Shown: positions 1 through 8,465 of the stretch, piece by piece
Position numbering within the stretch: the stretch's first letter is position 1
Layout of the letters: every line of letters begins with the position of its first letter
Source: Alphaproteobacteria bacterium
GTDB taxonomy: Bacteria > Pseudomonadota > Alphaproteobacteria > Micavibrionales > SZUA-601
DNA: 44,391 bases
Assembly: GCA_003250865.1 (NCBI GenBank)
Contig: QKJH01000181.1
Coordinates: 1 to 44,391 of the forward strand
Direction: 5' to 3'
The notes under the pieces: model-generated
Told to the model about the DNA's origin: nothing
The model's input: only the letters and a program-made list of their open reading frames with translations
The model's database searches: none
Made by a program: the position numbers and the translations under genes

Positions 1-52
1 ATAATATTGTTATGAGCATATGTCAATTAATCAAATATAAATATCTGATTAT

Positions 53-1006
53 TTACTGTTTTAAAGCATCAAGATTCCTTTTATAAAATCTTTTTCCCTC
101 ATATGTGTATTCAATAATTTTGTTCTGATCAATAAGTTCTTTTAATATCGAGCTGTCCGCTTTTTTTACTTTAATATAATGCCGGATGATTTCTTCTCTG
201 ATCGGATGTACGGAAGTAATGCTTAAAAGATCTTCCGCGACATTATCCGTAAAGAAGAACCCCTGTTCGGTATCGTCCTCGGTGATACATTCAACATTTA
301 CGCTGGAAATGCTGTTAATTATGCTTGCGGTTTTAATAAGACTTTCGCTTGTCGCTCTGTATATATTACTTTCGGCGGGTGGCCTTGTCGGCACCAATAT
401 ATATGATTTACGTGGATTGATTTTCAAAATTTGTTCTGCTATTCCCTCAATATGTCGGGGATCATCATTCAACCCCGATACAAGCATGGTTTCGGTCACA
501 AGGTTTCCTTTATATGATTTTGAAAAGTCGATCACGCCTTTCAAAACTTTTTGAAGGCTCAAGCCGCCGTGCGGTCTGTCGATCCGGTGCCAGACATCGT
601 CCGAAACAGCGTCGATTTTCACGGACACCCAATCCGATTTTGATAAATCTTCTTTCACTTCATCCATCCATAAAAGCGACGCATTCGTTATGACCGCCGT
701 TTTAATATTCAAATTTTTTATAAGATCAAGTTCGATACCTAAATTCTTATCAAGTGTCGGTTCGCCGTCCGGTACAAAGGATATATAATCCGGCTGTTTT
801 CCGTTTTCCTTGATCTGATTCACCTTAGTTTTTACCTCAGAATATATATCTTCAGGCTTGTAAAATTCTTTTCTGTATATCTTCATGTTTTTTGTTCTGC
901 CGATCTGACAGTAAACGCAGGAATAAGAACAAACTTTAGGAGGAATATTGTTGACTCCGAGGCTTTGTCCCAATCTTCGTGAGGGGACAGGACCGTATAC
1001 GAACAT
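53..1006 (-). CDS. radical SAM protein, uncharacterised family
   Basis: ORF 53..1096. The likely start is MFVYGPVPSRRLG, with ATG at 1004-1006, 4 nt after the def stop and preceded by AGGAAA. CSYSCVYCQ is the CxxxCxxC radical-SAM cluster motif. Confidence 0.8.
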   Translation of the reverse strand: MFVYGPVPSRRLGQSLGVNNIPPKVCSYSCVYCQIGRTKNMKIYRKEFYKPEDIYSEVKTKVNQIKENGKQPDYISFVPDGEPTLDKNLGIELDLIKNLNIKTAVITNASLLWMDEVKEDLSKSDWVSVKIDAVSDDVWHRIDRPHGGLSLQKVLKGVIDFSKSYKGNLVTETMLVSGLNDDPRHIEGIAEQILKINPRKSYILVPTRPPAESNIYRATSESLIKTASIINSISSVNVECITEDDTEQGFFFTDNVAEDLLSITSVHPIREEIIRHYIKVKKADSSILKELIDQNKIIEYTYEGKRFYKRNLDALKQ

Positions 1007-1010
1007 AATA

Positions 1011-1493
1011 TCATTTCCTTTCTGTTGAAGCATCGCTGTTATATAAAGATTCGGGAGAAGCTTTATCAATAAATAAAATCCCATCAAGATGGTCAATTTC
1101 GTGACAGAAAGCTCGAGCCAATAGTCCCGTTCCTTTTAAAATAACAGAATCTCCATTTTCATTCAAAGTGCTGACTTCCACTTGCTCAGGCCGTTTTACA
1201 GTTCCGTAAATACCGGGGATACTTAAACATCCCTCAGTCTCCTGCTGTTCACCATAAGAGCTTACGATTTCCGGGTTTATTAGCTTTATCAAGCCTTCTC
1301 CCGCATCGATAACGACCAATCTTTTTAATATGCCAATCTGTACCGCAGCCAGCCCCGCGCCATCTGCCTGATACATGGTTTCTGCCATATCGTCAAGAAT
1401 GGATAATATCCTGCCGTCTATCTTTTCTACTGTTTTTGATTTTTTACGCAGAATATCATCCTTTTGATAATTCATTATATTTCTTATAGCCAT
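1011..1493 (-). CDS. def: peptide deformylase
   Basis: Translation MAIRNIM...GLAAVQIG...EGCLSIPG...HEIDHLDG carries the three deformylase motifs. The start was moved to M16 (ATG 1491-1493), which follows an AAGGA SD. Confidence 0.9.
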   Translation of the reverse strand: MAIRNIMNYQKDDILRKKSKTVEKIDGRILSILDDMAETMYQADGAGLAAVQIGILKRLVVIDAGEGLIKLINPEIVSSYGEQQETEGCLSIPGIYGTVKRPEQVEVSTLNENGDSVILKGTGLLARAFCHEIDHLDGILFIDKASPESLYNSDASTERK

Positions 1494-1536
1494 GTGTATC
1501 ATCCTTATATGATTAAAATGATAGTGAAATGCGAAC

Positions 1537-1559
1537 AAGGCAGGCCTCAGGCCTGCCTT
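1537..1559 (-). terminator. GC-rich hairpin between the last DUF5320-like gene and def (possible terminator or attenuator)
   Basis: AAGGCAGGCC-TCA-GGCCTGCCTT is a perfect 10-bp stem. The U-tract on the minus strand is weak (GTTCGCATTT). Confidence 0.35.
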
Positions 1560-1576
1560 TCGCTTTACCGACAGGG

Positions 1577-1903
1577 CTATTCTTCCGTGCTTCCTTCAAA
1601 GTCCGCAAGACGCTTTTTTACATCGTGAAGCTGATTTTCCAACAGCTTTGCCTGTCTTTTCAGAAGCTCTTTTTCATCAGCATCCGACGCATATGCCCCA
1701 TTTGTATTTTGGCCGCCGAAGCGTGCCCATCTCGGCAAACCGGTCGCATAAAACATTCGTCTGAAGCCTCGACCTCCACCGAAACCACATCCGTAACCGA
1801 CCGGATTTGCGTAACCCGGGGCAGCAAAGCCCGTACAGAAGCCCGCGCCTCGCCCTGTCATTGGACCCATTCCCATAGGTCCGGTTCCATCTCCTCTTGG
1901 CAT
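1577..1903 (-). CDS. DUF5320-like small protein (MPRGDGTGP N-terminus, Gly-rich, charged helical C-terminus)
   Basis: 108-aa ORF. The N-terminus MPRGDGTGPMGMGPMTGRGAGFC is shared with two paralogs in the same operon. Confidence 0.75.
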   Translation of the reverse strand: MPRGDGTGPMGMGPMTGRGAGFCTGFAAPGYANPVGYGCGFGGGRGFRRMFYATGLPRWARFGGQNTNGAYASDADEKELLKRQAKLLENQLHDVKKRLADFEGSTEE

Positions 1904-1929
1904 AATATCACCACCTTTCCTGTTAACTT

Positions 1930-2160
1930 TTATTTTTGTATTCTGTTGCGGTTAAATAACCGATAAGCCAGATACGCGCATCCGGGCAGCACTCCAGCGA
2001 GCCAGAACATACGTCTATAACCTCGACCTTGTCCGAACCACATTCCTCGTCGGACTCTTGTATTCGCATATCCGGGTGTTTTAAAGCCTGCGCAGAAACC
2101 TGCACCTCGTCCAGTCAATGATCCCATTCCCAAAGGACCGGTTCCGTCACCTCTCGGCAT
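1930..2160 (-). CDS. DUF5320-like small protein, paralog
   Basis: 76-aa ORF. MPRGDGTGPLGMGSLTGRGAGFCAGF is nearly identical over the first ~35 aa to the 1577..1903 product. Confidence 0.7.
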   Translation of the reverse strand: MPRGDGTGPLGMGSLTGRGAGFCAGFKTPGYANTRVRRGMWFGQGRGYRRMFWLAGVLPGCAYLAYRLFNRNRIQK

Positions 2161-2172
2161 AATATTCTCTCC

Positions 2173-2574
2173 TTATTCTTTTATACATAATAATTTGCTT
2201 ATTTGATTACTAAGCCTCTCTGCTGTTTCCGGACTGACAGCATGCTCCATTTTACAGGCATCTTTATTGGCGATTACTGCGTTTACTCCCAATACATCTA
2301 CTAAAAATGTTATGATGAGGTCGTGTTTGTTTTTTATTTGCATAGCAAGCTTATATCCGTTTTCTGTTAAAATAATGCTTCCGTATTTTTCTTTTTCAAT
2401 AAGTCCGGAGCTTTTCAGTTCTGTCATCATTCTGCTTACGCTGGCTCGTGTAATCCCAAGCCTCTCAGCAACACCCGACGATTGCACTTCTTTATTGCAT
2501 TCAGATAATTCATATATCACCCGTAAATAATCTTCCTTTGAACGAGTAATTGAATTTTTTTGAGTGGAATCCAT
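2173..2574 (-). CDS. DtxR/MntR-family metal-dependent transcriptional regulator
   Basis: 133 aa. It has an N-terminal winged HTH (EDYLRVIYEL...VAERLGITRASVSRMMTELK) followed by a dimerisation/metal helix region. Confidence 0.8.
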   Translation of the reverse strand: MDSTQKNSITRSKEDYLRVIYELSECNKEVQSSGVAERLGITRASVSRMMTELKSSGLIEKEKYGSIILTENGYKLAMQIKNKHDLIITFLVDVLGVNAVIANKDACKMEHAVSPETAERLSNQISKLLCIKE

Positions 2575-2576
2575 TT

Positions 2577-2789
2577 TTATGAGCCTCTAATCATGGATGT
2601 GCCGCATTTTGGGCATTTTACAGAAGTACATGGAATTCCCGGCGCATGTGCTATTTTTTCTCCGCATTTCGGACATACGCAATAGCCTCCGGGACCAGAG
2701 CGCATACCGCCTATTCTACCTTGTCTTCCAATGCCTCTTCCTGTAATCGGTCCCTGTCCCAACGGGCCTGTTCCGTCTTTATTCGGCAT
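2577..2789 (-). CDS. DUF5320-like small protein with C-terminal zinc ribbon
   Basis: MPNKDGTGPLGQGPITGRGIG N-terminus, then CVCPKCG...CPKCG (two CxxC pairs). Confidence 0.7.
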   Translation of the reverse strand: MPNKDGTGPLGQGPITGRGIGRQGRIGGMRSGPGGYCVCPKCGEKIAHAPGIPCTSVKCPKCGTSMIRGS

Positions 2790-2816
2790 AACAAAAACCT
2801 CCTCGAATAATATTAA

Positions 2817-3206
2817 TCAATCGTCATGTGGATGGTCGCAGACAGTTTTGTCCAATCCGTAACCTCGCCCCGTGCCGGGAACACATAGGCTTTCACCATT
2901 TGCTATAAGGGTTCCTTGTATAAAGGAATCAAGTGTATTGTTTACATCTCCGGTAACTCCCGCAATTACCTGTATCCCATAAGAATTAAATATTTCCGTT
3001 GCTCTTGCTCCGATGCCGCCGCAAATAATTCTATGAACACCCTTTGAATGTAGGAACTCCGGAATAGCTCCGGGAGCATGACCCGGATTTGGAAGCCTCT
3101 CTGATTTTATCAGTTTACTGCTCTGTATCTCCGCAATCAAAAACTCAGGACATCTTCCGAAATGCGCGGATACTGAGTTGCAATCAGTTGAAATTGCTAT
3201 TTTCAA
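2817..3206 (-). CDS. NifB/NifX-family (dinitrogenase Fe-Mo cofactor-binding fold) protein
   Basis: MKIAIST...HFGRCPEF...IICGGIGARA pattern is typical of the NifX/NifB C-terminal fold. It is a paralog of 4919..5290. Confidence 0.75.
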   Translation of the reverse strand: MKIAISTDCNSVSAHFGRCPEFLIAEIQSSKLIKSERLPNPGHAPGAIPEFLHSKGVHRIICGGIGARATEIFNSYGIQVIAGVTGDVNNTLDSFIQGTLIANGESLCVPGTGRGYGLDKTVCDHPHDD

Positions 3207-3211
3207 TGCAT

Positions 3212-4087
3212 TTACCTCCTTCTACCTGTTATTGTTGATATTTGTTCCGAAAGCTTTTCCCAGATATCTTCAATTTCTGCTGTAATATTTTCAAGTCCAG
3301 CGTCAATCGGCGTTTTAAACTCACGCAGCGCATAAACAATCTTCGGCTCAAACGGAATTTTTCCGATTACCTTAAAACCGTTCTTATCGCAAAAATCCTC
3401 AATTTGCCTTGTAATATCCGGGTTAAGATCATATTTATTAATGCACACATAACCCGGAATATCAAAATGCTTTGCTACTGCCAGAACTCTTTCAAGATCG
3501 CTAATCCCGGATTTTGTCGGCTCCGATACGGCAACGACGGCGTCAGCCCCGGTTATTGAAGCGATTACGACACAGCCGATTCCGGGGGAACCATCAATCA
3601 GCAGCCAATCCTCTTCGTTTATATGGTTCCTCGCGTTTTTCCTGACCTCTGTAACCAGCTTCCCCGAACCTTCAGCACCGATATCCAAAAGGGCATGGGA
3701 GAAGGTGCCTCTGTCCGTTTCAGAGACATAAGTATTTCCTGTTTTTACATCCTCAAGATGAATTGCACCTGCGGGACATATCAAGGTACATGCGCCGCAG
3801 CCCTCGCAGTGAAACGGGACGATCTCAAAATCCTCGCTGATAGCGCCGAACCGGCAGGTTCTGCGGCAAATACCGCAGGAAAGGCATTTATCCTTATCAA
3901 TAACCGCTTCTTTCGCACCGTAATAATCTTTTTCTTCCATGACCTTCCCATTCAGCAAAATATGAAGATTGGGAGCGTCAACATCGCAGTCGGCAAGCAT
4001 TTTATTCTGAACGATCTGACTTAAAGAAGCTACGAGCGTGGATTTTCCTGTTCCGCCTTTACCGCTGATAAAAACAATCTGCTTCAC
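3212..4087 (-). CDS. MinD/Mrp-like P-loop ATPase with inserted 4Fe-4S ferredoxin domain
   Basis: Deviant Walker A ISGKGGTGKST. Cys clusters CLSCGICRRTC and CEGCGACTLICP. Overlaps the upstream paralog by 4 nt. Confidence 0.8.
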   Translation of the reverse strand: MKQIVFISGKGGTGKSTLVASLSQIVQNKMLADCDVDAPNLHILLNGKVMEEKDYYGAKEAVIDKDKCLSCGICRRTCRFGAISEDFEIVPFHCEGCGACTLICPAGAIHLEDVKTGNTYVSETDRGTFSHALLDIGAEGSGKLVTEVRKNARNHINEEDWLLIDGSPGIGCVVIASITGADAVVAVSEPTKSGISDLERVLAVAKHFDIPGYVCINKYDLNPDITRQIEDFCDKNGFKVIGKIPFEPKIVYALREFKTPIDAGLENITAEIEDIWEKLSEQISTITGRRR

Positions 4088-4914
4088 TGTAAAACACGCT
4101 CCTTTATCTTGTCATATAGTTCTATAAAACGGGCCGCCCATTCTTTATTGTTTTGAACAGGTAGGGTGCCGCCGGAATAGTTTTTTGCGATTTCCTTTAA
4201 ATAAGGTATTTTGAGCAGAATTTCAATTCCTTCTTCTTTGCAGTAATCTTGAATTAAGCTGTTGTTTTCAAGCGCTTTATTGATCACAATGCCAAACGGA
4301 AACCCGAGCTTTTTAACAAGCGATACGGCAATTTTCAGATCATGCAATCCAAAGGGAGTCGGCTCAGTTACCAAAAGACAGAAATCGCAGCCTTCCAATG
4401 ACTGGACGACCGTACAGGATGCGCCCGGAGAGCAATCGAGAATAACCGGTATATCCGTTCTTAAATATTCCTTCAGTTTTTTTATTACAGGCACCGCAAC
4501 CGGTTCCCCGATATTCAGCTTTCCCTGAGCAAAAGTTTGGTCGTCATTCATCTCAATAACACCGATGGTTCTTTCCGAAGCAGTCATAGCGCCGGGCTTA
4601 CAGGCGATATAACAAGCTCCGCAGTGATGGCAGATTTCAGGGAAGAGTATGACCTTATTTTTGATAACGGCAAGCGCATGAAACTGGCAGGCCTTTGCGC
4701 AAGCTCCGCAGCTGGTACAAATCGATTCATCAACGCAGGGGATCTCAACGTTTACAGGAATCGAATGTTTGATGTCCGGTTTTAAGAAAATATATCCGTT
4801 CGGTTCCTCCACGTCACAATCAACATATTGGGAAGGCTTAATCGTTGCGGAAAGGCTGGCGGATACGGTTGTTTTACCCGTACCGCCTTTTCCGCTTAAT
4901 ACAGCGATCTTCAT
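4084..4914 (-). CDS. MinD/Mrp-like P-loop ATPase with inserted 4Fe-4S ferredoxin domain
   Basis: Walker A LSGKGGTGKTT. Cys clusters CTSCGACAKAC and CHHCGACYIAC. Confidence 0.8.
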   Translation of the reverse strand: MKIAVLSGKGGTGKTTVSASLSATIKPSQYVDCDVEEPNGYIFLKPDIKHSIPVNVEIPCVDESICTSCGACAKACQFHALAVIKNKVILFPEICHHCGACYIACKPGAMTASERTIGVIEMNDDQTFAQGKLNIGEPVAVPVIKKLKEYLRTDIPVILDCSPGASCTVVQSLEGCDFCLLVTEPTPFGLHDLKIAVSLVKKLGFPFGIVINKALENNSLIQDYCKEEGIEILLKIPYLKEIAKNYSGGTLPVQNNKEWAARFIELYDKIKERVLQ

Positions 4915-4918
4915 TACC

Positions 4919-5290
4919 TCAACTCCTGTTTCCCATTCCGAAATGTGAAGGAACGGTTTCAGTTATTTTTTCTAATTTTCCTGCTTTGTAATTTTCGATG
5001 TTCTCTTTTACGGATTCAGTTTTTCCTCTGTAAATGCTGATGCCCGCCGCTTTCAATACATTCATCGCATTGGGACCGACATTTCCGGTAACTATGGCTT
5101 CAACACCTTTTTCTACCATCAGCTGACCCGAACTGATTCCCGCGCCGCCACCGGAAACTCCGGCTTCATTCGGGATAACCGTATGCTCACCGGATTCTAA
5201 ATCAGCGACAACAAAGTACGAGCACCTTCCAAACCGGGGATCAAGCATGCTTTCAACTGTCTCACCGCTTGAGGTTATACAAATCTTCAT
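4919..5290 (-). CDS. NifB/NifX-family protein
   Basis: MKICITS...RFGRCSYF...IVTGNVGPNA. First gene of the minus-strand operon. Confidence 0.75.
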   Translation of the reverse strand: MKICITSSGETVESMLDPRFGRCSYFVVADLESGEHTVIPNEAGVSGGGAGISSGQLMVEKGVEAIVTGNVGPNAMNVLKAAGISIYRGKTESVKENIENYKAGKLEKITETVPSHFGMGNRS

Positions 5291-5312
5291 TTTATCGTCT
5301 CCTTTAATGTTA

Positions 5313-5360
5313 TTGGCATATGCCCATTACTATGATAATACTATTATGAGCATATGTCAA
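5313..5360 (-). promoter_or_regulatory. promoter of the NifX/MinD/DUF5320 operon with operator-like palindromes
   Basis: On the minus strand: TTGACA (5360-5355), a 17-nt spacer, then TATCAT (5337-5332). The 13-nt palindrome ATAATA-G-TATTAT (5335-5347) overlaps the -10 and the spacer. The perfect palindrome GGCATATGCC (5315-5324) lies just downstream of the -10. Confidence 0.5.
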
Positions 5361-5394
5361 TAACTTATTCGATATTTCATATAAATTTCTTTAT

Positions 5395-5419
5395 AAAAAA
5401 AGAGAGCCATAAGGCTCTC
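5395..5419 (-). terminator. rho-independent terminator after the Fur-family gene
   Basis: GAGAGCC-ATAA-GGCTCTC is a 7-bp perfect stem (5402-5419). It is followed on the minus strand by seven T (5395-5401). Confidence 0.7.
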
Positions 5420-5449
5420 CGGTAAAATTTTTTGACAAAGTCAAATTTA

Positions 5450-5881
5450 TTATAAATTATGAATTTGGCAATTAGGGCAATAACCGTAAATATTCAGATT
5501 GTGACCTTCTATAGTAAAATTTGTTTCATTTGCAAGGACTTTTTCATAACCCTCAAGAGGGCAGTGTTCTATAGCTAATATTTTTTTACAGCCAAGGCAA
5601 ATCAGGTGATGCCTGTGTATCATGTGGTTAAATTCAAATAACGTTCTGTTATCTCCTTTAACGTTTAGCTTTATTAAGAGATTTTTATCACACAACGTAT
5701 CAAGAGTTCTGTAAACAGTAGATAGATTAATGGATATTTTCCTTACCAGCATTTCCTCAAACAGCTGTTCAGCGGAAATAGGCTGGCTGCTTTTTTTCAA
5801 AATGTCAAGAATCATAGTACGGTGCTTCGTGTTTTTTAATCCATTTCTTTTTAATTCACTATAAATATCAGTTTTTTTCAT
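5450..5881 (-). CDS. Fur-family transcriptional regulator, probably Zur
   Basis: HTH region plus HHLICLGC and CPNC Zn-site pairs. Last gene of the metal ABC operon. Start moved to M6 (ATG 5879-5881) behind an AAGGTGA SD. Confidence 0.75.
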   Translation of the reverse strand: MKKTDIYSELKRNGLKNTKHRTMILDILKKSSQPISAEQLFEEMLVRKISINLSTVYRTLDTLCDKNLLIKLNVKGDNRTLFEFNHMIHRHHLICLGCKKILAIEHCPLEGYEKVLANETNFTIEGHNLNIYGYCPNCQIHNL

Positions 5882-6725
5882 TAAATTCACCTTCATGCGT
5901 ATTTTGAGTATCTTTTAATTTGTTATTTACTGTACGCACAGTATATGTTAATAAATAACTGATCACAGATATAACTACTATAACTGCTCCGGAAGCAATA
6001 TTCATCTCATAAGATATCCATAGACCGGCAATACAAAAGACACTGCCAAATAAAATTGAATACAGCATTCGTCTTTTAAAATCAAAGGTAAATACACTTG
6101 CTGTTGCGGCCGGAGCTGTGAGCAGGGCAAGCACAAGGATGATTCCGACAACCCGAATTAAAACAACTACAGTCATTGCAATAAGTAAGAGCAGCAGATA
6201 TTCCAGAAAGACTGTTTTAATACCAATAATTGTGGCGAATTCTTCGTCAAAAAGATAAGCTTTCCAATTATTGAATAAAGCAAAAATTACGAATATTACA
6301 ATAACCGTTAATAACACCATTAAGTAAAGATCAGATTTCGTAACCGAAAGAATGTTTCCGAAAAGATAAGAGCTTAAATCCGGGGGATATCCGGGCATTA
6401 AGGCAATGAAAAGAATACCAAGTGCCATTCCAAGCGACCAGAACAAACCAATTACCACATCAGAACGAGCACCGCCTTTTCTTTTTATATAACCTATTCC
6501 CAAAGCTGCACAAACAGAAAATAAAAACGCACCAATAATCGGTTCAAAGCCTAAAAGATAACCCAGCCCAACACCGCCGTACGAGGTATGTGCGATTCCT
6601 CCGCTCATCATAACCAGCTTTTTTTCAATAATAATATCGCCGATAATTCCGCATACGATGCTTGCCAATATACTGGCAAGCAAAGCATTTTGTAAAAATT
6701 GATATTCAAAGAGTGCTTTAATCAT
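5868..6725 (-). CDS. metal (Zn/Mn-type) ABC transporter permease
   Basis: Multi-TM ZnuB/TroC-like sequence. Start at M7 (ATG 6723-6725) behind GGAGG, overlapping the ATPase stop. Confidence 0.8.
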   Translation of the reverse strand: MIKALFEYQFLQNALLASILASIVCGIIGDIIIEKKLVMMSGGIAHTSYGGVGLGYLLGFEPIIGAFLFSVCAALGIGYIKRKGGARSDVVIGLFWSLGMALGILFIALMPGYPPDLSSYLFGNILSVTKSDLYLMVLLTVIVIFVIFALFNNWKAYLFDEEFATIIGIKTVFLEYLLLLLIAMTVVVLIRVVGIILVLALLTAPAATASVFTFDFKRRMLYSILFGSVFCIAGLWISYEMNIASGAVIVVISVISYLLTYTVRTVNNKLKDTQNTHEGEFNEKN

Positions 6726-7509
6726 TATAATTTTCCTCCTCATGCTCCTTTAGCACTCTATGAGGTACTCCATGAGCAATAAGGTCAACCGGGCAACCAT
6801 ATAGGCTGTTTACAATACTTTCGGTAAGCTCCGGCTCTCCATGATAAACAAGTCTTCCGTTCAGGCAAGCCAACCTGTGAACCTGTGACGAGATAGCAAG
6901 CAAATCATGTGTAACTAAGATAATGGTCATGCTTTTGTTTAATTCCGCAAGCAAATCATAAATCTGCCGCTGCGAAAAAGCATCCACACTGGCGGTTGGC
7001 TCATCTAAAAGCAATAGCTTTGGTTTGGTAGCCAACGCTCTTGCAATCAGCATTTTTTGAAATTCACCGCCTGACAATTCAGATATCTGACGATTTGCAA
7101 GGTTTGGAATACCAACCTTTTCAATGAGTTCATTTGCTAAATCCTTTTCCTTTGCGCTATATTTATAAAATGGTGTTAAGCCCTTCTTTAAGCATCCTGT
7201 AAGAACCACCTCAAGCAATGTAATCGGGAACCGCTTATCCATTGCAGCAAATTGCGGCACATAACTCATTAATGTTCTGCTTTTTTGGATACTGTTATCA
7301 TATATCTGCACATTTCCCGAGGCAATTGATACAAGACCGAGAATAGCCTTTAACAGTGTCGATTTACCTCCTCCGTTCGGGCCAATAATTCCAAGATATT
7401 CACCATCATCAACATCAAGGCAGATATTAGAAATTGCAGGTTTTTGGCCGTAATATACTGTAAGATTTTCAATATGTACCGCATAACTATTGTTCGCTGC
7501 ATTGTTCAT
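6718..7509 (-). CDS. metal ABC transporter ATP-binding protein
   Basis: Walker A GPNGGGKST, signature LSGGEFQ, Walker B LLLLDEP. Its start overlaps the stop of the upstream binding-protein gene (ATGA). Confidence 0.85.
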   Translation of the reverse strand: MNNAANNSYAVHIENLTVYYGQKPAISNICLDVDDGEYLGIIGPNGGGKSTLLKAILGLVSIASGNVQIYDNSIQKSRTLMSYVPQFAAMDKRFPITLLEVVLTGCLKKGLTPFYKYSAKEKDLANELIEKVGIPNLANRQISELSGGEFQKMLIARALATKPKLLLLDEPTASVDAFSQRQIYDLLAELNKSMTIILVTHDLLAISSQVHRLACLNGRLVYHGEPELTESIVNSLYGCPVDLIAHGVPHRVLKEHEEENYND

Positions 7510-8384
7510 TGCATAACCTCCGCCAATGTATCAGCCATTTTTTTCAGATTACTAATGTAATCTGCTGCTAAGGGCGCAAGCTGTATGGTTTTTCCGCCAA
7601 TTTCTTCAGCAAACGCTTCCGATTGACTGCTGTCAACTTCTTCTTGATAAAATATTACTTTAATTTTTTCTTTCTTTGCAAGGTCGATCATTTCCTGTAA
7701 GTTTTGGGGTGTCGCTTCTTTGCCTTCTTCCTGCAACGCATACATAGTTAAGCCATAATCATCGGCAAGATATCCGAAAGCGGGATGATAAACAATAAAC
7801 TTCTTATTTTGCACCTCTTTAACGGCATCTTTTATCTGCCTGTCAAGTTCATCGAGTTGATTGATATATACATCAGCATTTTCATTGTATTTACTCGCAT
7901 TATCAGGATCAAACTCACTCATTTTTTGAGCGATAACCTCAATAATGACCTTCACACGTTTGGGAGAAAGCCAGATATGGGGGTCTCTCTCTCCGGACTC
8001 AAATGTCCTGTCCGGATAAACTAAAGCAACTTCATCCTGAAGCAAAACTACTTTAACATCTCCGATATTAGGAAGTATATTTGACTTTTCCGTTGGTACT
8101 CCAATAGAAAAATATAAGGATGCTTTACTGAATTTCTCCATTTCTTTTGGGGTAGGTTCATAGTTTTCGGGACTGTTTCCCGGCGGAATAAGTGTGATAA
8201 CATCCACTAAATCACCGCATACCGCTTTAACATAGGTTTGTTCAGGTACAATGGTAACTGCGATTATTGGTTTTTCTGTCTGTATGGTTTCTTTACTGCA
8301 AGAAACTGTTGACAGAAGAACAAGAGTAAGAAATGTAATAGATATAATACCTATACAATTGCGAAACACCCTGTTGGATAACAT
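7506..8384 (-). CDS. metal ABC transporter substrate-binding lipoprotein (ZnuA/TroA-like)
   Basis: Signal peptide with lipobox-like STVSC. Cluster-9 SBP-like sequence (PHIWLSP, YHPAFGY). Confidence 0.8.
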   Translation of the reverse strand: MLSNRVFRNCIGIISITFLTLVLLSTVSCSKETIQTEKPIIAVTIVPEQTYVKAVCGDLVDVITLIPPGNSPENYEPTPKEMEKFSKASLYFSIGVPTEKSNILPNIGDVKVVLLQDEVALVYPDRTFESGERDPHIWLSPKRVKVIIEVIAQKMSEFDPDNASKYNENADVYINQLDELDRQIKDAVKEVQNKKFIVYHPAFGYLADDYGLTMYALQEEGKEATPQNLQEMIDLAKKEKIKVIFYQEEVDSSQSEAFAEEIGGKTIQLAPLAADYISNLKKMADTLAEVMQ

Positions 8385-8405
8385 TATATTTACCTCCTTT
8401 ATGAC

Positions 8406-8426
8406 AAATGCGAATCATTTGCATCT
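8406..8426 (-). promoter_or_regulatory. Zur/Fur-box-like operator
   Basis: AAATGCGAAT-C-ATTTGCATCT is an imperfect 10-1-10 palindrome (8 of 10 arm positions pair). It sits 2 nt downstream of the -10 and resembles the AAATCGTAAT-N-ATTACGATTT Zur-box pattern. Confidence 0.5.
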
Positions 8427-8428
8427 AC

Positions 8429-8457
8429 ATTATAAAGAAATTATGGTCATATGTCAA
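8429..8457 (-). promoter_or_regulatory. consensus sigma-A promoter of the metal ABC operon
   Basis: On the minus strand: TTGACA (8457-8452), exactly 17 nt, then TATAAT (8434-8429). Confidence 0.65.
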
Positions 8458-8465
8458 TAATTAAT

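What the first reader, a model, noticed from the sequence alone, without database searches (positions are those of the whole stretch)
1577..5365. Uncharacterised DUF5320 x3 / NifX-like x2 / MinD-FeS ATPase x2 / DtxR operon
**What the sequence shows**
- Eight tightly packed minus-strand genes sit behind one promoter.
- Two encode NifX/NifB-C-like cofactor-binding-fold proteins.
- Two encode MinD/Mrp-like ATPases, each interrupted by a double 4Fe-4S ferredoxin insert.
- One encodes a DtxR/MntR-family repressor.
- Three encode small paralogs sharing the N-terminus MP(R/N)(G/K)DGTGP.G.G..TGRG.G, with divergent tails: one helical and charged, one hydrophobic, one a zinc ribbon.

**Interpretation**
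- No nitrogenase genes are present, so the NifX-like proteins must handle something else.
- The combination suggests an ATP-driven metallocluster assembly, storage or trafficking system under metal control.
- The role of the Gly-rich small proteins is unknown; they may be scaffolds, chaperoned cargo or condensate-forming proteins.
Basis: partly seen in the sequence, partly recalled or inferred. Interest (0 to 1): 0.6.

Follow-up and report, generated by a model that had tools for sequence, protein, structure and literature searches.

The report
Orange-protein-type iron-sulfur operon with DUF5320
This is a sludge Clostridia version of the widespread but still unexplained "orange protein" gene cluster of anaerobes, which most likely holds and hands on iron-sulfide material, and its three small DUF5320 proteins look like detached copies of the tail that related carrier proteins carry fused.

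Summary
All eight genes are real and tightly packed, and they sit behind one sigma-70-type promoter.

**What it is**
- The cluster is not wholly uncharacterised. Its core (a NifX-like carrier plus two MinD-type ATPases with ferredoxin inserts) matches the Desulfovibrio ORP (orange protein) complex.
- DUF5320 co-occurs with that core in at least 14 phyla: NifX-like genes in 61 of 80 loci and the ATPases in 55 of 80.
- DUF5320 is very often fused to the C-terminus of NifX-like domains (118 of the 120 best hits).
- DUF5320 has three conserved subtypes, and this window carries one of each:
  - a disordered cationic Gly/Arg/aromatic region plus a helix;
  - a hydrophobic-tailed form;
  - a six-cysteine module that sits where Orp5 sits.

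**Best reading**
- It is an ATP- and electron-driven machine for handling or storing iron sulfide, working like IssA. This is inferred, not shown.

- The paired 20-bp palindromes at the promoter recur across Bacillota. They track DUF134 regulators, not the embedded DtxR-like gene. In this strain the DUF134 gene lies just outside the window.
- A leaky hairpin leads on to def and a co-conserved radical SAM gene.

**Limit**
- IssA and Orp5 sequences could not be obtained, so membership in those families is untested.

The parts
5401..5420 (-). Intrinsic terminator of the upstream znuACB-fur operon; it separates that operon from the cluster.
   Evidence: Scan finds an 8-bp stem with 5 GC pairs followed by TTTTTTT. 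The sequence is shown.
5332..5360 (-). Sigma-70-type promoter of the cluster (TTGACA-17-TATCAT).
   Evidence: It matches 11 of 12 consensus positions. The same promoter architecture is conserved in L004, L009, L010, L014 and L020.
5344..5363 (.). Operator O1, a 20-bp palindrome TTATnnnCATATGnnnATAA overlapping the -35 hexamer.
   Evidence: - It matches the pattern with 0 mismatches. The window holds 4 sites against 0.04 expected by chance.
- It forms a 19-nt inverted repeat with 5309-5327.
- It is conserved in more than 20 Bacillota loci.
5310..5329 (.). Operator O2, a second copy of the palindrome between the -10 hexamer and the ribosome-binding site.
   Evidence: Shown. The O1/O2 pair is conserved in L004, L008, L009, L010, L011, L014, L017, L020, L023, L025, L034 and L040.
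4919..5290 (-). NifXa, a 123-aa single-domain Nitro_FeMo-Co protein of the MTH1175 / orange-protein (Orp8) type.
   Evidence: - Pfam scores 82.8 bits.
- PDB matches are 1eo1 MTH1175 at 2.9e-20, 1rdu at 2.1e-20 and 2wfb D. gigas ORP at 3.5e-14.
4084..4914 (-). MinD-type P-loop ATPase 1 (276 aa) with an inserted 2x[4Fe-4S] ferredoxin domain; Orp3/Orp4-like.
   Evidence: - Pfam finds CbiA/ParA plus Fer4.
- It carries GKGGTGKT and two CxxCxxCxxxC motifs.
- It scores far below the MinD equivalog cut-offs.
3212..4087 (-). MinD-type P-loop ATPase 2 (291 aa) with an inserted 2x[4Fe-4S] ferredoxin domain; a paralogue of ATPase 1, overlapping it by 4 nt.
   Evidence: Shown. No solved structure covers the whole architecture.
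2817..3206 (-). NifXb, a 129-aa Nitro_FeMo-Co protein of the MrpORP Di-Nase type, with HFGxC, PGHxPGxxP and C-terminal CDH motifs.
   Evidence: - NCBIfam MrpORP model positions 265-365 score 92 bits, E = 4.5e-26.
- PDB matches are PH0822 and TM1816.
- The motifs are compared with those described in PMC6345978.
2577..2789 (-). DUF5320 type B (70 aa): an MPNKDGTGP N-motif, a Gly/Arg stretch, and a six-Cys module CxCPxCG-x5-H-x3-GxPC-x4-CPKCG.
   Evidence: - Pfam scores 27.9 bits.
- The subtype is conserved across phyla and has 1457 representative clusters.
- In Desulfobacterota loci that hold a true MrpORP, it lies directly upstream of the two ATPases.
2173..2574 (-). Two-domain DtxR/MntR-family regulator (133 aa), translationally coupled to type B.
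   Evidence: - Both Pfam domains match, and the nearest structures are SloR, MntR and IdeR.
- The metal-site positions read D15, H84, C106, E109 and H110. Only C-x-x-E-H is kept in orthologues.
1930..2160 (-). DUF5320 type C (76 aa, pI 11.6): the same N-motif followed by a hydrophobic C-terminal helix.
   Evidence: Pfam scores 61.4 bits. Composition is, and orthologues occur in L001-L005, L007, L009, L014 and L017.
1577..1903 (-). DUF5320 type A (108 aa): a disordered cationic Gly/Arg/aromatic region (residues 1-66, pI 10.8, 30% Gly) plus a conserved C-terminal helix.
   Evidence: - Pfam scores 113.9 bits.
- In the AF2 model, pLDDT is 43-47 for residues 1-48 and 93-94 for helix 74-106.
- The helix is homologous to the tails of NifX fusions (hhalign probability 99.15, E = 3.9e-19).
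- It is the best-covered gene in metatranscriptome contigs.
1531..1563 (-). GC-rich hairpin after the DUF5320 A stop codon; a probable leaky terminator or RNA stabiliser.
   Evidence: The fold has -31.2 kcal/mol and z = -3.25. It has no clean U-tract and was not called by the scan. Contig depth drops downstream of it.
1011..1493 (-). Peptide deformylase paralogue; a probable read-through member of the unit.
   Evidence: Pfam Pep_deformylase scores 159 bits. The gene call comes from L085. The same position is occupied in L014, L017 and L021.
53..1006 (-). Radical SAM protein (317 aa, one CxxxCxxC cluster motif) of an uncharacterised family; it co-occurs with DUF5320.
   Evidence: - Pfam Radical_SAM scores 59 bits.
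- A homologue lies within 8 kb of DUF5320 in 22 of 80 loci, and in 14 of 34 full-length loci.
- The AF2 model has pLDDT 91.9, but it has only generic radical SAM neighbours in the PDB.
10..29 (.). Third copy of the palindrome, at the promoter of the next operon. That operon runs off the window and encodes Pyr_redox, DUF6125, CGGC, ARMT1-like and DUF134.
   Evidence: Shown. The continuation is read in L085, which is 99.97% identical over 3644 nt.
5450..8384 (-). Upstream operon: a ZnuA-family metal ABC importer (znuA, znuC, znuB) and a Fur-family regulator.
   Evidence: ORFs are, the Pfam FUR match, and the gene calls and Pfam assignments in L086. The same adjacency occurs in L009, L014, L015 and L017.
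8441..8460 (.). Fourth copy of the palindrome, overlapping the -35 hexamer of the znuA promoter.
   Evidence: It matches with 0 mismatches. The promoter is TTGACA-17-TATAAT, 12 of 12 positions.

Best explanation
**What it is**
- The cluster is a Bacillota variant of the anaerobe-specific ORP (orange protein) module. In its mechanism it resembles the IssA iron-sulfur store.

**Proposed working (inferred)**
- The two tail-less NifX-like proteins bind inorganic iron-sulfide species. NifXa is of the MTH1175/Orp8 type and NifXb of the MrpORP Di-Nase type.
- DUF5320 A and C supply in trans what many relatives carry fused to the NifX-like domain: a floppy cationic Gly/Arg/aromatic segment that can wrap anionic Fe-S material.
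  - In type A, a helix follows that would drive oligomerisation.
  - In type C, a hydrophobic helix follows that may anchor or nucleate the assembly.
- DUF5320 B sits at the Orp5 position. It is a small six-cysteine protein that would bind its own cluster or metal and act as donor, acceptor or sensor.
- The two paralogous MinD-type ATPases are Orp3/Orp4-like, each with two [4Fe-4S] clusters. They would form a nucleotide-switched dimer that couples ATP hydrolysis and electron transfer to loading or reductive release of clusters towards apo-proteins.

**Transcription**
- Transcription starts at one sigma-70 promoter bracketed by two 20-bp palindromes.
- These palindromes most likely bind a DUF134 regulator encoded 5.3 kb further on.
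- The embedded DtxR-like protein adds a second, still undefined, metal input.

**Shown versus inferred**
- Shown here: gene content, homologies, co-occurrence, domain fusions, and conservation of the operator.
- Inferred: the cargo, the roles of the individual proteins, and which regulator binds.
For: **Homology to ORP parts**
- NifXa matches the D. gigas ORP structure 2wfb (3.5e-14) and MTH1175 (2.9e-20).
- NifXb matches the Di-Nase half of the MrpORP model (92 bits).
- Both ATPases have the Orp3/Orp4 architecture (PMC6345978).

**Co-conservation**
- Within 8 kb of DUF5320, in 80 loci from at least 14 phyla, NifX-like genes occur in 61, MinD-ferredoxin ATPases in 55 and the radical SAM gene in 22.
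- In Desulfobacterota loci with true MrpORP equivalogs (534 and 524 bits, cut-off 450), the order is A - B - ATPase - ATPase - MrpORP.

**Fusions**
- 118 of the 120 best hits to a NifX+tail protein carry PF02579 plus PF17253.
- Five of six tails tested score above the DUF5320 gathering threshold.
- hhalign of stand-alone type A against the fused tails gives probability 99.15, E = 3.9e-19.
- The type B module is fused to NifX-like domains in L016 and in P0363, which has five copies between two domains. It is also fused to DUF134.

**Chemistry**
- The type A N-region has pI 10.8, 30% Gly, 15% aromatic and 11% cationic residues, and is predicted disordered.
- The published IssA tail has pI 10.7, 21% Gly, 20% aromatic and 10% cationic residues, and is unstructured (PMC5524996).

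**Context**
- The same strain's island continues with a NifU_N scaffold, an Mrp ATPase (341 bits to the P-loop part of MrpORP), a CoA-disulfide-reductase-like flavoprotein, a NifX-flavin reductase fusion and DUF134.

**Published behaviour of relatives**
- Orp3/4/8 co-purify as Fe-S proteins loaded by MrpORP.
- The orp operons are on only at low redox potential with sulfide present (PMC8359166).
- IssA is made when Fe and sulfide abound.
Against: - No cargo has been shown for any protein of this cluster. The function of the ORP complex itself is unresolved; the literature calls it 'putatively involved in cell division'.
- The NifX+DUF5320 fusions do not meet the published IssA or IssX criteria (0 of 120 and 1 of 120; median pI 6.6).
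- Their Gly-rich parts are poor in aromatic residues (2.7%).
- Only the C-terminal helix aligns between stand-alone and fused forms. Pairwise BLASTP finds nothing.
- The DUF5320 N-motif is far more strictly conserved than a purely electrostatic tail needs: 16 invariant columns in 41 sequences. This points to a specific site.
- The IssA and Orp5 sequences could not be obtained, so neither equivalence was tested by sequence.
- The RNA evidence is weak. It consists of short contigs from relatives, in libraries that may contain DNA.
Confidence: 0.55

Rival explanations
1. The module handles molybdenum, tungsten or copper thiometallates. The NifX-like proteins would bind Mo/Cu-sulfide clusters, as the purified D. 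gigas orange protein does. The module would then store, detoxify or deliver thiomolybdate-type species for Mo/W enzymes.
For: - NifXa is homologous to the orange protein structure 2wfb. That protein carries a [S2MoS2CuS2MoS2] cluster (cited in PMC6345978).
- The Pfam family is named after FeMo-cofactor binding.
Against: - No Mo or W transporter or cofactor genes lie in the window, in L085, or recurrently in the 80 loci.
- The neighbours are Fe-S themed: NifU_N, Mrp and ferredoxins.
- The regulators belong to the Fur, DtxR and DUF134 families.
- MrpORP and IssA, both relatives, bind Fe-S material.
Confidence: 0.1
2. The module has a cell-division or positioning role. The MinD-like ATPases would place a complex at the pole or septum, as was proposed for the Desulfovibrio ORP complex. 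The small proteins would be adaptors.
For: - Published papers describe the orp genes as putatively involved in cell division or septum positioning, and report polar localisation of MrpORP.
- Both ATPases belong to the MinD/ParA class.
Against: - Both ATPases score 21-47 bits against MinD models whose cut-offs are 202-213 bits, and both carry ferredoxin inserts.
- No division genes lie nearby.
- Every recurrent neighbour is related to a metal or to Fe-S.
Confidence: 0.07
3. The module serves zinc or general metal homeostasis. It would buffer or chaperone Zn (or Mn) together with the adjacent ZnuA-family importer, with the Cys-rich ribbon proteins acting as metal stores.
For: - A znuACB-fur operon lies directly upstream. 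It shares palindrome O1, and the adjacency recurs in L009, L014, L015 and L017.
- Type B has ribbon-like CPxCG pairs.
- A DtxR/MntR-family gene is embedded in the cluster.
Against: - The importer adjacency is limited to some Bacillota (4-5 of 80 loci), whereas the link between NifX, the ATPases and DUF5320 spans phyla.
- Ferredoxin-bearing ATPases and NifX-like domains have no known role with zinc.
- ZnuA-family importers also carry Mn or Fe, so the adjacency need not mean zinc.
Confidence: 0.08
4. The DUF5320 proteins are not passive tails. They are substrates or cofactor carriers for the co-conserved radical SAM enzyme, helped by the def paralogue, and the modification or cluster is built on the invariant MP..DGTGP..TGRG.G.C motif.
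For: - The N-motif is strictly conserved, including Met1-Pro2 and Cys23.
- The radical SAM gene follows the DUF5320 genes in many Bacillota loci, and def does in several.
- Radical SAM and NifX-like genes are translationally coupled in L044, L061 and L070.
- NifB appears among the structural neighbours.
Against: - The radical SAM gene is present in only 22 of 80 loci.
- It has a single cluster motif and no auxiliary Cys.
- Its structural neighbours are generic, with TM about 0.55.
- Fused DUF5320 tails lack the N-motif.
Confidence: 0.08

Closest known systems
ORP (orange protein) complex and orp operons of Desulfovibrio vulgaris Hildenborough / D. alaskensis / D. gigas (Orp3, Orp4, Orp5, Orp8, Orp9 = MrpORP)
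   Same: - Both have two paralogous MinD-type ATPases with two [4Fe-4S] motifs each.
- Both have a single-domain Nitro_FeMo-Co protein homologous to the orange protein (2wfb).
- Both have a Di-Nase domain of the MrpORP type.
- Both have a small Cys-rich protein next to the ATPases.
- Both are specific to anaerobes.
   Different: - There is no sigma-54 promoter and no OrpR activator. Instead there is a sigma-70 promoter with paired palindromes and an embedded DtxR-like gene.
- MrpORP is split here. NifXb lies in the window and a separate Mrp gene lies in L085, scoring 341 bits against a cut-off of 450.
- There are three DUF5320 genes, plus def and a radical SAM gene.
- Identity of type B with Orp5 rests on gene position only.
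IssA of Pyrococcus furiosus (thioferrate iron-sulfur storage protein, PMC5524996)
   Same: - Both have a Nitro_FeMo-Co (IPR003731) globular domain of the MTH1175 clade.
- Both have a disordered cationic Gly/aromatic/Arg segment of about 65-70 residues with one conserved Cys (pI 10.8 here, 10.7 in IssA).
   Different: - Domain and 'tail' are on separate polypeptides here.
- DUF5320 A adds a conserved helix and a strict N-motif that are not described for IssA.
- The NifX+DUF5320 fusions fail the published IssA and IssX criteria.
NifB / NifX / NafY with NifH in nitrogenase cofactor assembly
   Same: - Both use the NifX-like carrier fold for a complex Fe-S species.
- Both include a SIMIBI-class ATPase carrying Fe-S clusters.
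- Both have a radical SAM enzyme nearby.
   Different: - There are no nif genes and no NifH signature.
- No NifB, NifX or NafY model matched.
- The radical SAM protein has no auxiliary cluster ligands.
DUF134 (PF02001, UPF0251) putative DNA-binding proteins
   Same: - A DUF134 gene lies in the same regulon in this strain (L085 6904-7380).
- The 20-bp palindrome found at this promoter lies directly upstream of DUF134 genes in several phyla.
   Different: - Binding has never been shown.
- In this window the DUF134 gene lies outside the given coordinates.
- A DtxR-like regulator is embedded in the cluster instead.
DtxR/IdeR/MntR/SloR metalloregulators
   Same: Both have the two-domain fold, and both keep the Cys-x-x-Glu-His part of the primary metal site as in DtxR/IdeR.
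   Different: - There is no SH3-like third domain.
- The other ligand positions vary among orthologues (Asp or Asn; His or Tyr).
- The window holds no IdeR/DtxR-type box.

Membership tests
ORP complex / orp operon | Two paralogous MinD-type P-loop ATPases, each with two [4Fe-4S] ferredoxin motifs (Orp3/Orp4). | tested here: met
   Both proteins have CbiA/ParA plus Fer4 domains, GKGGTGK[TS], and two CxxCxxCxxxC motifs each.
ORP complex / orp operon | A single-domain Nitro_FeMo-Co protein homologous to the orange protein (Orp8). | tested here: met
   NifXa matches 2wfb_A (D. gigas ORP) at E = 3.5e-14, 56 bits.
ORP complex / orp operon | MrpORP (Orp9): an Mrp/NBP35 P-loop fused to a Di-Nase domain. 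| tested here: not met
   - There is no fusion here.
- NifXb matches only model positions 265-365 (92 bits).
- A separate Mrp gene in L085 matches positions 2-245 (341 bits, cut-off 450).
ORP complex / orp operon | A small Cys-rich protein (Orp5, a homologue of the [2Fe-2S] protein Dde_3197) next to the ATPases. | tested here: inconclusive
   - Type B occupies that position in L029 and L064, which hold true MrpORP.
- The DVU2105 and Dde_3197 sequences could not be obtained.
ORP complex / orp operon | A sigma-54 promoter activated by OrpR. | tested here: not met
   The promoter is sigma-70-type, TTGACA-17-TATCAT, and there is no enhancer-binding protein gene in the window or in L085.
ORP complex / orp operon | The proteins form a physical complex. 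| not testable with these tools
   This needs co-purification.
IssA (thioferrate store) | An IPR003731 / Nitro_FeMo-Co domain of the MTH1175/IssA clade. | tested here: inconclusive
   NifXa matches MTH1175 at 2.9e-20. No tree was built against IssA.
IssA (thioferrate store) | A C-terminal cationic Gly-rich tail on the same protein (pI at least 9, at least 20% Gly in the last 40 residues, fewer than 5 Cys). | tested here: not met
   - NifXa and NifXb have no tail, and their pI values are 5.7 and 6.0.
- Related NifX+DUF5320 fusions also fail the criteria (0 of 120).
IssA (thioferrate store) | Binds thioferrate and forms nanoparticles. | not testable with these tools
   This needs anaerobic biochemistry, XAS and TEM.
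DUF5320 (PF17253) | A score at or above the Pfam gathering threshold of 27 bits. | tested here: met
   The three proteins score 113.9, 61.4 and 27.9 bits. Type B matches only the N-terminal 29 residues.
DtxR/MntR family | Both the N-terminal DNA-binding domain and the metal-binding/dimerisation domain are present. | tested here: met
   PF01325 scores 56.5 bits and PF02742 scores 62.4 bits.
DtxR/MntR family | A complete set of metal ligands of a known subtype (Fe-type Met/Cys/Glu/His, or Mn-type Asp/Glu/His/Glu/Glu/His). | tested here: inconclusive
   The set is a hybrid: D15, H84, C106, E109, H110. Orthologues keep only C-x-x-E-H. Ligand numbering for the reference proteins is from my own knowledge.
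NifX/NafY/NifB nitrogenase maturation | A match to the specific models, plus nif gene context. | tested here: not met
   No NifX, NafY or NifB model matched in NCBIfam. There is no NifH signature in the window or in L085.
MinD cell-division ATPase | A score above the MinD equivalog cut-off. | tested here: not met
   minD_bact scores 21-38 bits against a cut-off of 212.9, and minD_arch scores 43-47 bits against 201.75.

The most novel reading that the evidence does not exclude
**Proposal**
- DUF5320 proteins are free-standing, modular counterparts of the Gly/Arg tails of NifX-like carriers.
- Together with tail-less NifX-like proteins they nucleate membrane-less iron-sulfide (thioferrate-like) storage granules in anaerobic bacteria. 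This would be the anaerobes' answer to ferritin.

**Proposed roles of the other parts**
- The Orp3/Orp4-type ferredoxin-ATPases are the long-sought loading and reductive-unloading motor.
- The six-Cys type B module, which also occurs fused to DUF134 regulators, reports the filling state of the store to a cross-phylum 20-bp operator.

**What this would explain**
- It would give the ORP complex a function and tie ORP, IssA, DUF5320 and DUF134 into one system.
Probability: 0.3. Interest if true: 0.8.

Novelty: new variant of a known kind. Interest (0 to 1): 0.55.

Why it matters
- The function of the ORP complex has been open since 2011, and it remains unclear how general IssA-type iron-sulfur storage is.
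- This locus and its relatives turn both questions into a concrete test. DUF5320 has thousands of sequence clusters and no informative literature, and it is genomically and physically (by fusion) tied to NifX-like carriers and ferredoxin-ATPases in at least 14 anaerobic phyla.
- If the split-carrier reading is right, it describes how strict anaerobes store and mobilise iron sulfide. That matters for Fe-S enzyme supply in digesters, sediments and guts.
- The conserved paired operator gives a handle on how the system is switched.
- Cultured relatives (Herbinix hemicellulosilytica, Thermoclostridium caenicola, Caproicibacter fermentans, Caldicoprobacter algeriensis) carry the module and can be used for experiments.

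Tried and rejected
**Tools and papers that were unavailable**
I therefore made no whole-genome profile and no check for nif or suf genes elsewhere in the genome.
- Fievet 2011 (PMC3133258) is not held.

**Sequences I could not obtain**
- The P. furiosus IssA (Q8TZG9) sequence was not found in the paper supplements.
- Orp5 (DVU2105 / Dde_3197) was not found by literature search, nor by cluster look-up of ten type B relatives, which returned no names.

**Searches that found nothing useful**
- Pairwise BLASTP of DUF5320 A against a fused tail found nothing. Only profile comparison works.
- A literature search for DUF5320 gave two irrelevant papers. Searches for COG1149/COG1433 and 'inserted ferredoxin domain' gave nothing useful.
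- An IdeR/DtxR box search of the window gave no match.

**Radical SAM protein**
- It has no PDB relative by sequence, and only generic radical SAM folds by structure. The idea of a NifB-like cluster-fusing enzyme is therefore unsupported, and it lacks auxiliary Cys ligands.

**Rejected readings**
- A true MinD or ParA function, because the scores lie far below the cut-offs.
- A nitrogenase accessory role, because there is no nif context.
- Chance low-complexity ORFs for the DUF5320 genes, because they are conserved in three subtypes across phyla and relatives express them.

Full report
**Observation**

The eight minus-strand ORFs exist exactly where stated. They are separated by -4 to 27 nt.

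Pfam gives:
- Nitro_FeMo-Co for 4919-5290 (NifXa) and 2817-3206 (NifXb);
- CbiA/ParA P-loop plus Fer4 for 4084-4914 and 3212-4087;
- both DtxR-family domains for 2173-2574;
- DUF5320 for 1577-1903 (113.9 bits), 1930-2160 (61.4 bits) and 2577-2789 (27.9 bits, N-terminal 29 residues only).

Each ATPase has the deviant Walker A GKGGTGK[TS] and two CxxCxxCxxxC motifs.

A terminator hairpin at 5420-5401 ends the upstream fur gene. A TTGACA-17-TATCAT promoter follows at 5360-5332.

**Ends of the unit**

A GC-rich hairpin lies directly after the stop of the last DUF5320 gene (1531-1563; -31.2 kcal/mol, z = -3.25). It has no clean U-tract, and the terminator scan did not call it.

Next come def (1011-1493) and a radical SAM gene (53-1006). 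They have ribosome-binding sites but no convincing promoter. I read this as a leaky terminator or stabiliser with read-through.

In metatranscriptome contigs of close relatives, the DUF5320 A gene is by far the best covered part. One contig spans the C/A gene junction, and depth falls after the hairpin. This is weak evidence: the contigs are short, they come from relatives, and the libraries may hold DNA.

**What the parts are**

- NifXa matches the solved structures of MTH1175 (2.9e-20), TM1290 and the D. gigas orange protein 2wfb (3.5e-14).
- NifXb matches the C-terminal 'Di-Nase' domain of the NCBIfam MrpORP equivalog (92 bits). It carries the HFGxC, PxHxPGxxP and CDH motifs described for that domain (PMC6345978).
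- The two ATPases have the architecture of Orp3 and Orp4. They score far below the MinD cut-offs, and no solved structure covers the whole protein.

The core is therefore the anaerobe-specific ORP (orange protein) module. Published work on it shows:
- Orp3, Orp4 and Orp8 co-purify as Fe-S proteins, and MrpORP can load them;
- the orp operons are expressed only at low redox potential, and sparging out H2S switches them off (PMC8359166);
- its function is still called 'putatively cell division'.

**Co-conservation**

The best 80 come from at least 14 phyla.

I ran phmmer with the window's proteins against all ORFs of these 80 loci. Within 8 kb of DUF5320 the counts were:

| Gene | Loci of 80 |
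|---|---|
| NifX-like | 61 |
| Ferredoxin-ATPase | 55 |
| Homologue of the window's radical SAM gene | 22 |
| Fur-family | 14 |
| def | 8 |
| DtxR-like | 5 |
| ZnuA-type importer | 4-5 |

Among the 34 loci with full flanks the counts are 25, 26 and 14 for the first three, and 19 for DUF134.

- L004 (Oscillospiraceae) has the window's gene order without DtxR and def.
- L014 and L017 have ferredoxin - B - DtxR - C - A - def - radical SAM without adjacent NifX or ATPase genes. The window's operon is therefore a join of two sub-modules.
- Desulfobacterota loci L029 and L064 hold true MrpORP equivalogs (534 and 524 bits, cut-off 450). Their order is A - B - ATPase - ATPase - MrpORP, so DUF5320 belongs to bona fide orp loci and type B sits where orp5 sits (orp5-orp4-orp3).

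**DUF5320 anatomy**

Three subtypes recur across phyla.

- **Type A**
  - It has the motif MPxxDGTGPxGxGxxTGRGxGxC, a Gly/Arg/aromatic stretch and a C-terminal helix.
  - 16 columns are invariant in 41 sequences.
  - In the AlphaFold2 model, residues 1-48 have pLDDT 43-47 and helix 74-106 has 93-94.
  - The first 66 residues have pI 10.8, 30% Gly, 15% aromatic and 11% cationic residues.
- **Type B**
  - It has the same start, a Gly/Arg stretch, and the module CxCPxCG-x5-H-x3-GxPC-x4-CPxCG.
  - It has 1457 representative clusters at E <= 0.001.
- **Type C**
  - It has the same start and then a hydrophobic or Arg/Trp-rich end.

The window has one gene of each subtype.

**Fusions**

- NifX-like proteins in the same loci carry C-terminal (GRGMG)n tails ending in a helix. 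Five of six tested score as DUF5320 above threshold.
- A search with one such protein returned 118 of 120 best hits annotated with both PF02579 and PF17253, from bacteria and archaea.
- hhalign of stand-alone type A against the fused tails gives probability 99.15, E = 3.9e-19 over the 33-column helix. The Gly-rich parts do not align, and pairwise BLASTP finds nothing.
- The type B module is fused:
  - to a NifX-like domain (L016);
  - five-fold between two NifX-like domains in a 985-aa PDZ protein (P0363);
  - to DUF134 regulators;
  - to an RnfB-type Fe-S domain (P0397).

These fusions are strong evidence that DUF5320 works with NifX-like domains.

**Relation to IssA**

IssA is a NifX-like domain plus a 70-residue unstructured tail with pI 10.7, 15 Gly, 14 aromatic and 7 cationic residues and one Cys. 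The tail is proposed to wrap anionic thioferrate (PMC5524996). The N-region of type A has nearly the same chemistry.

The match is an analogy only:
- the NifX+DUF5320 fusions fail the published IssA and IssX criteria (0 of 120 and 1 of 120);
- their Gly-rich parts are poor in aromatics;
- I could not obtain the IssA sequence to test homology.

**Regulation**

The promoter is bracketed by two copies of a 20-bp palindrome, TTATnnnCATATGnnnATAA, at 5344-5363 over the -35 and at 5310-5329 after the -10. Further copies lie at the znuA promoter (8441-8460) and at 10-29. That makes four sites against 0.04 expected.

The same promoter-operator pair is conserved almost base for base in L004, L009, L010, L014 and L020, and in many other Bacillota loci. 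There it precedes NifX-like, DUF5320, ferredoxin, ATPase, def, MBL-fold, CGGC and DUF134 genes.

Across the 80 loci:

| | Motif present (24 loci) | Motif absent (56 loci) |
|---|---|---|
| Carry DUF134 | 20 | 15 |
| Carry DtxR | 5 | 0 |
| Carry Fur | 6 | 8 |

The palindrome lies directly upstream of DUF134 genes in Mahella, Anaerotignum, Latescibacterota and Victivallales. With two mismatches it also does so in Syntrophaceticus and Nitrospiraceae. I conclude that the operator more likely belongs to DUF134 than to the embedded DtxR-like protein. Shared ancestry among the Bacillota loci weakens this statistic, and binding is untested.

The DtxR-like protein keeps the Cys-x-x-Glu-His of the DtxR/IdeR primary site. 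Its other ligand positions vary among orthologues. The window holds no IdeR-type box, so its target and signal remain open.

**Beyond the window**

A contig of the same strain (L085; 99.97% identity over 3644 nt) continues past the window's left edge.
- After the radical SAM gene comes the palindrome-bearing promoter.
- The next operon encodes a CoA-disulfide-reductase-like flavoprotein, DUF6125, CGGC, an ARMT1-like protein and DUF134 (158 aa with a Cys-rich C-terminus).
- Another double palindrome follows.
- The operon after that encodes an MBL-fold protein, EamA, NifU_N, a BMC-domain protein, a NifX-flavin reductase fusion and an Mrp ATPase. The Mrp matches the P-loop half of MrpORP (341 bits).

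The cluster is thus one operon of a larger Fe-S themed regulon. No NifH signature occurs anywhere in this 52 kb.

**Mechanism, with steps marked**

Shown here: homology to ORP parts, cross-phylum co-occurrence, domain fusions, disorder plus helix in type A, and the conserved operator.

Inferred:
- the NifX-like proteins hold inorganic Fe-S species;
- DUF5320 A and C act in trans as cationic wrapping and oligomerising partners;
- type B binds its own cluster or metal, as reported for the Orp5 homologue Dde_3197 (cited);
- the two ferredoxin-ATPases couple ATP and electrons to loading or reductive release;
- expression is set by a DUF134-type repressor, with DtxR-like and Fur-like inputs.

The strict conservation of the N-motif, together with the neighbouring radical SAM and def genes, leaves room for a specific docking or modification step. 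The radical SAM model is confident (pLDDT 91.9), but it resembles only generic family members: PFL-activase, TYW1, viperin and NifB, with TM about 0.55.

**Novelty and earlier notes**

The held literature has nothing informative on DUF5320. Earlier agents of this scan reached the same ORP/IssA reading, and the DUF134-palindrome idea, in other genomes. Those are not independent evidence.

I had written down the ORP and IssA-tail leads before opening those notes. I tested the DUF134 idea here on my own loci.

Relative to the literature this is a new variant of a known kind. The variant features are an embedded DtxR-like gene, a split MrpORP, all three DUF5320 subtypes, and def plus a radical SAM gene.

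**Limits**

- Fievet 2011 is not held.
- All functional statements rest on comparative inference.

Noticed in passing
window 10-29, 5310-5329, 5344-5363, 8441-8460; L085 3616-3635, 7471-7490, 7508-7527: - A 20-bp palindrome, TTATnnnCATATGnnnATAA, marks at least four promoters of this strain.
- It is conserved at promoters of DUF5320, NifX-like, ferredoxin and DUF134 genes in more than 20 Bacillota loci, and upstream of DUF134 genes in other phyla.
- The DUF134 gene of this strain lies off-window (L085 6904-7380).
   Followed up: yes
window 1531-1563 (minus strand): A strong GC-rich hairpin without a U-tract follows DUF5320 A. Metatranscriptome contig depth is highest on that gene and drops after the hairpin, which suggests a stabilised or attenuated 3' end.
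   Followed up: partly
window 1011-1493; L011, L014, L017, L021: A peptide deformylase paralogue follows the DUF5320 genes in several Bacillota loci. Met1-Pro2 is invariant in all 41 type A proteins aligned, so N-terminal processing to Pro1 may matter.
   Followed up: no
P0363 (985 aa, from the representatives search): A membrane-anchored protein has two PDZ domains, a NifX-like domain, five tandem six-Cys (type B) modules and a second NifX-like domain.
   Followed up: partly
P0362, P0366: These proteins have an N-terminal signal-peptide-like segment followed by two or three tandem six-Cys modules, so the module may also act outside the cytoplasm.
   Followed up: no
L085 9388-10120: A NifU_N scaffold gene and a BMC (microcompartment shell) domain gene sit side by side in the extended island, behind a double palindrome.
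   Followed up: no
L024 7881-8381, L054 7872-8381, L061 4100-4642, L073 7238-7702: These ORFs have two in-frame copies of the DUF5320 N-motif (MPxFDGxGP... then MPRGDGTGP...). They are either tandem fusions or two genes read as one.
   Followed up: no
window 8400-8430: The znuA promoter carries a separate inverted repeat, CAAATG-5-CATTTG, downstream of the -10, in addition to the shared palindrome. It may be the site of the Fur-family regulator.
   Followed up: no
L014 4732-6687: In a Bacillota MAG, a two-gene permease pair occupies the place of the NifX and ATPase genes, between fur and the ferredoxin/DUF5320 sub-module.
   Followed up: no
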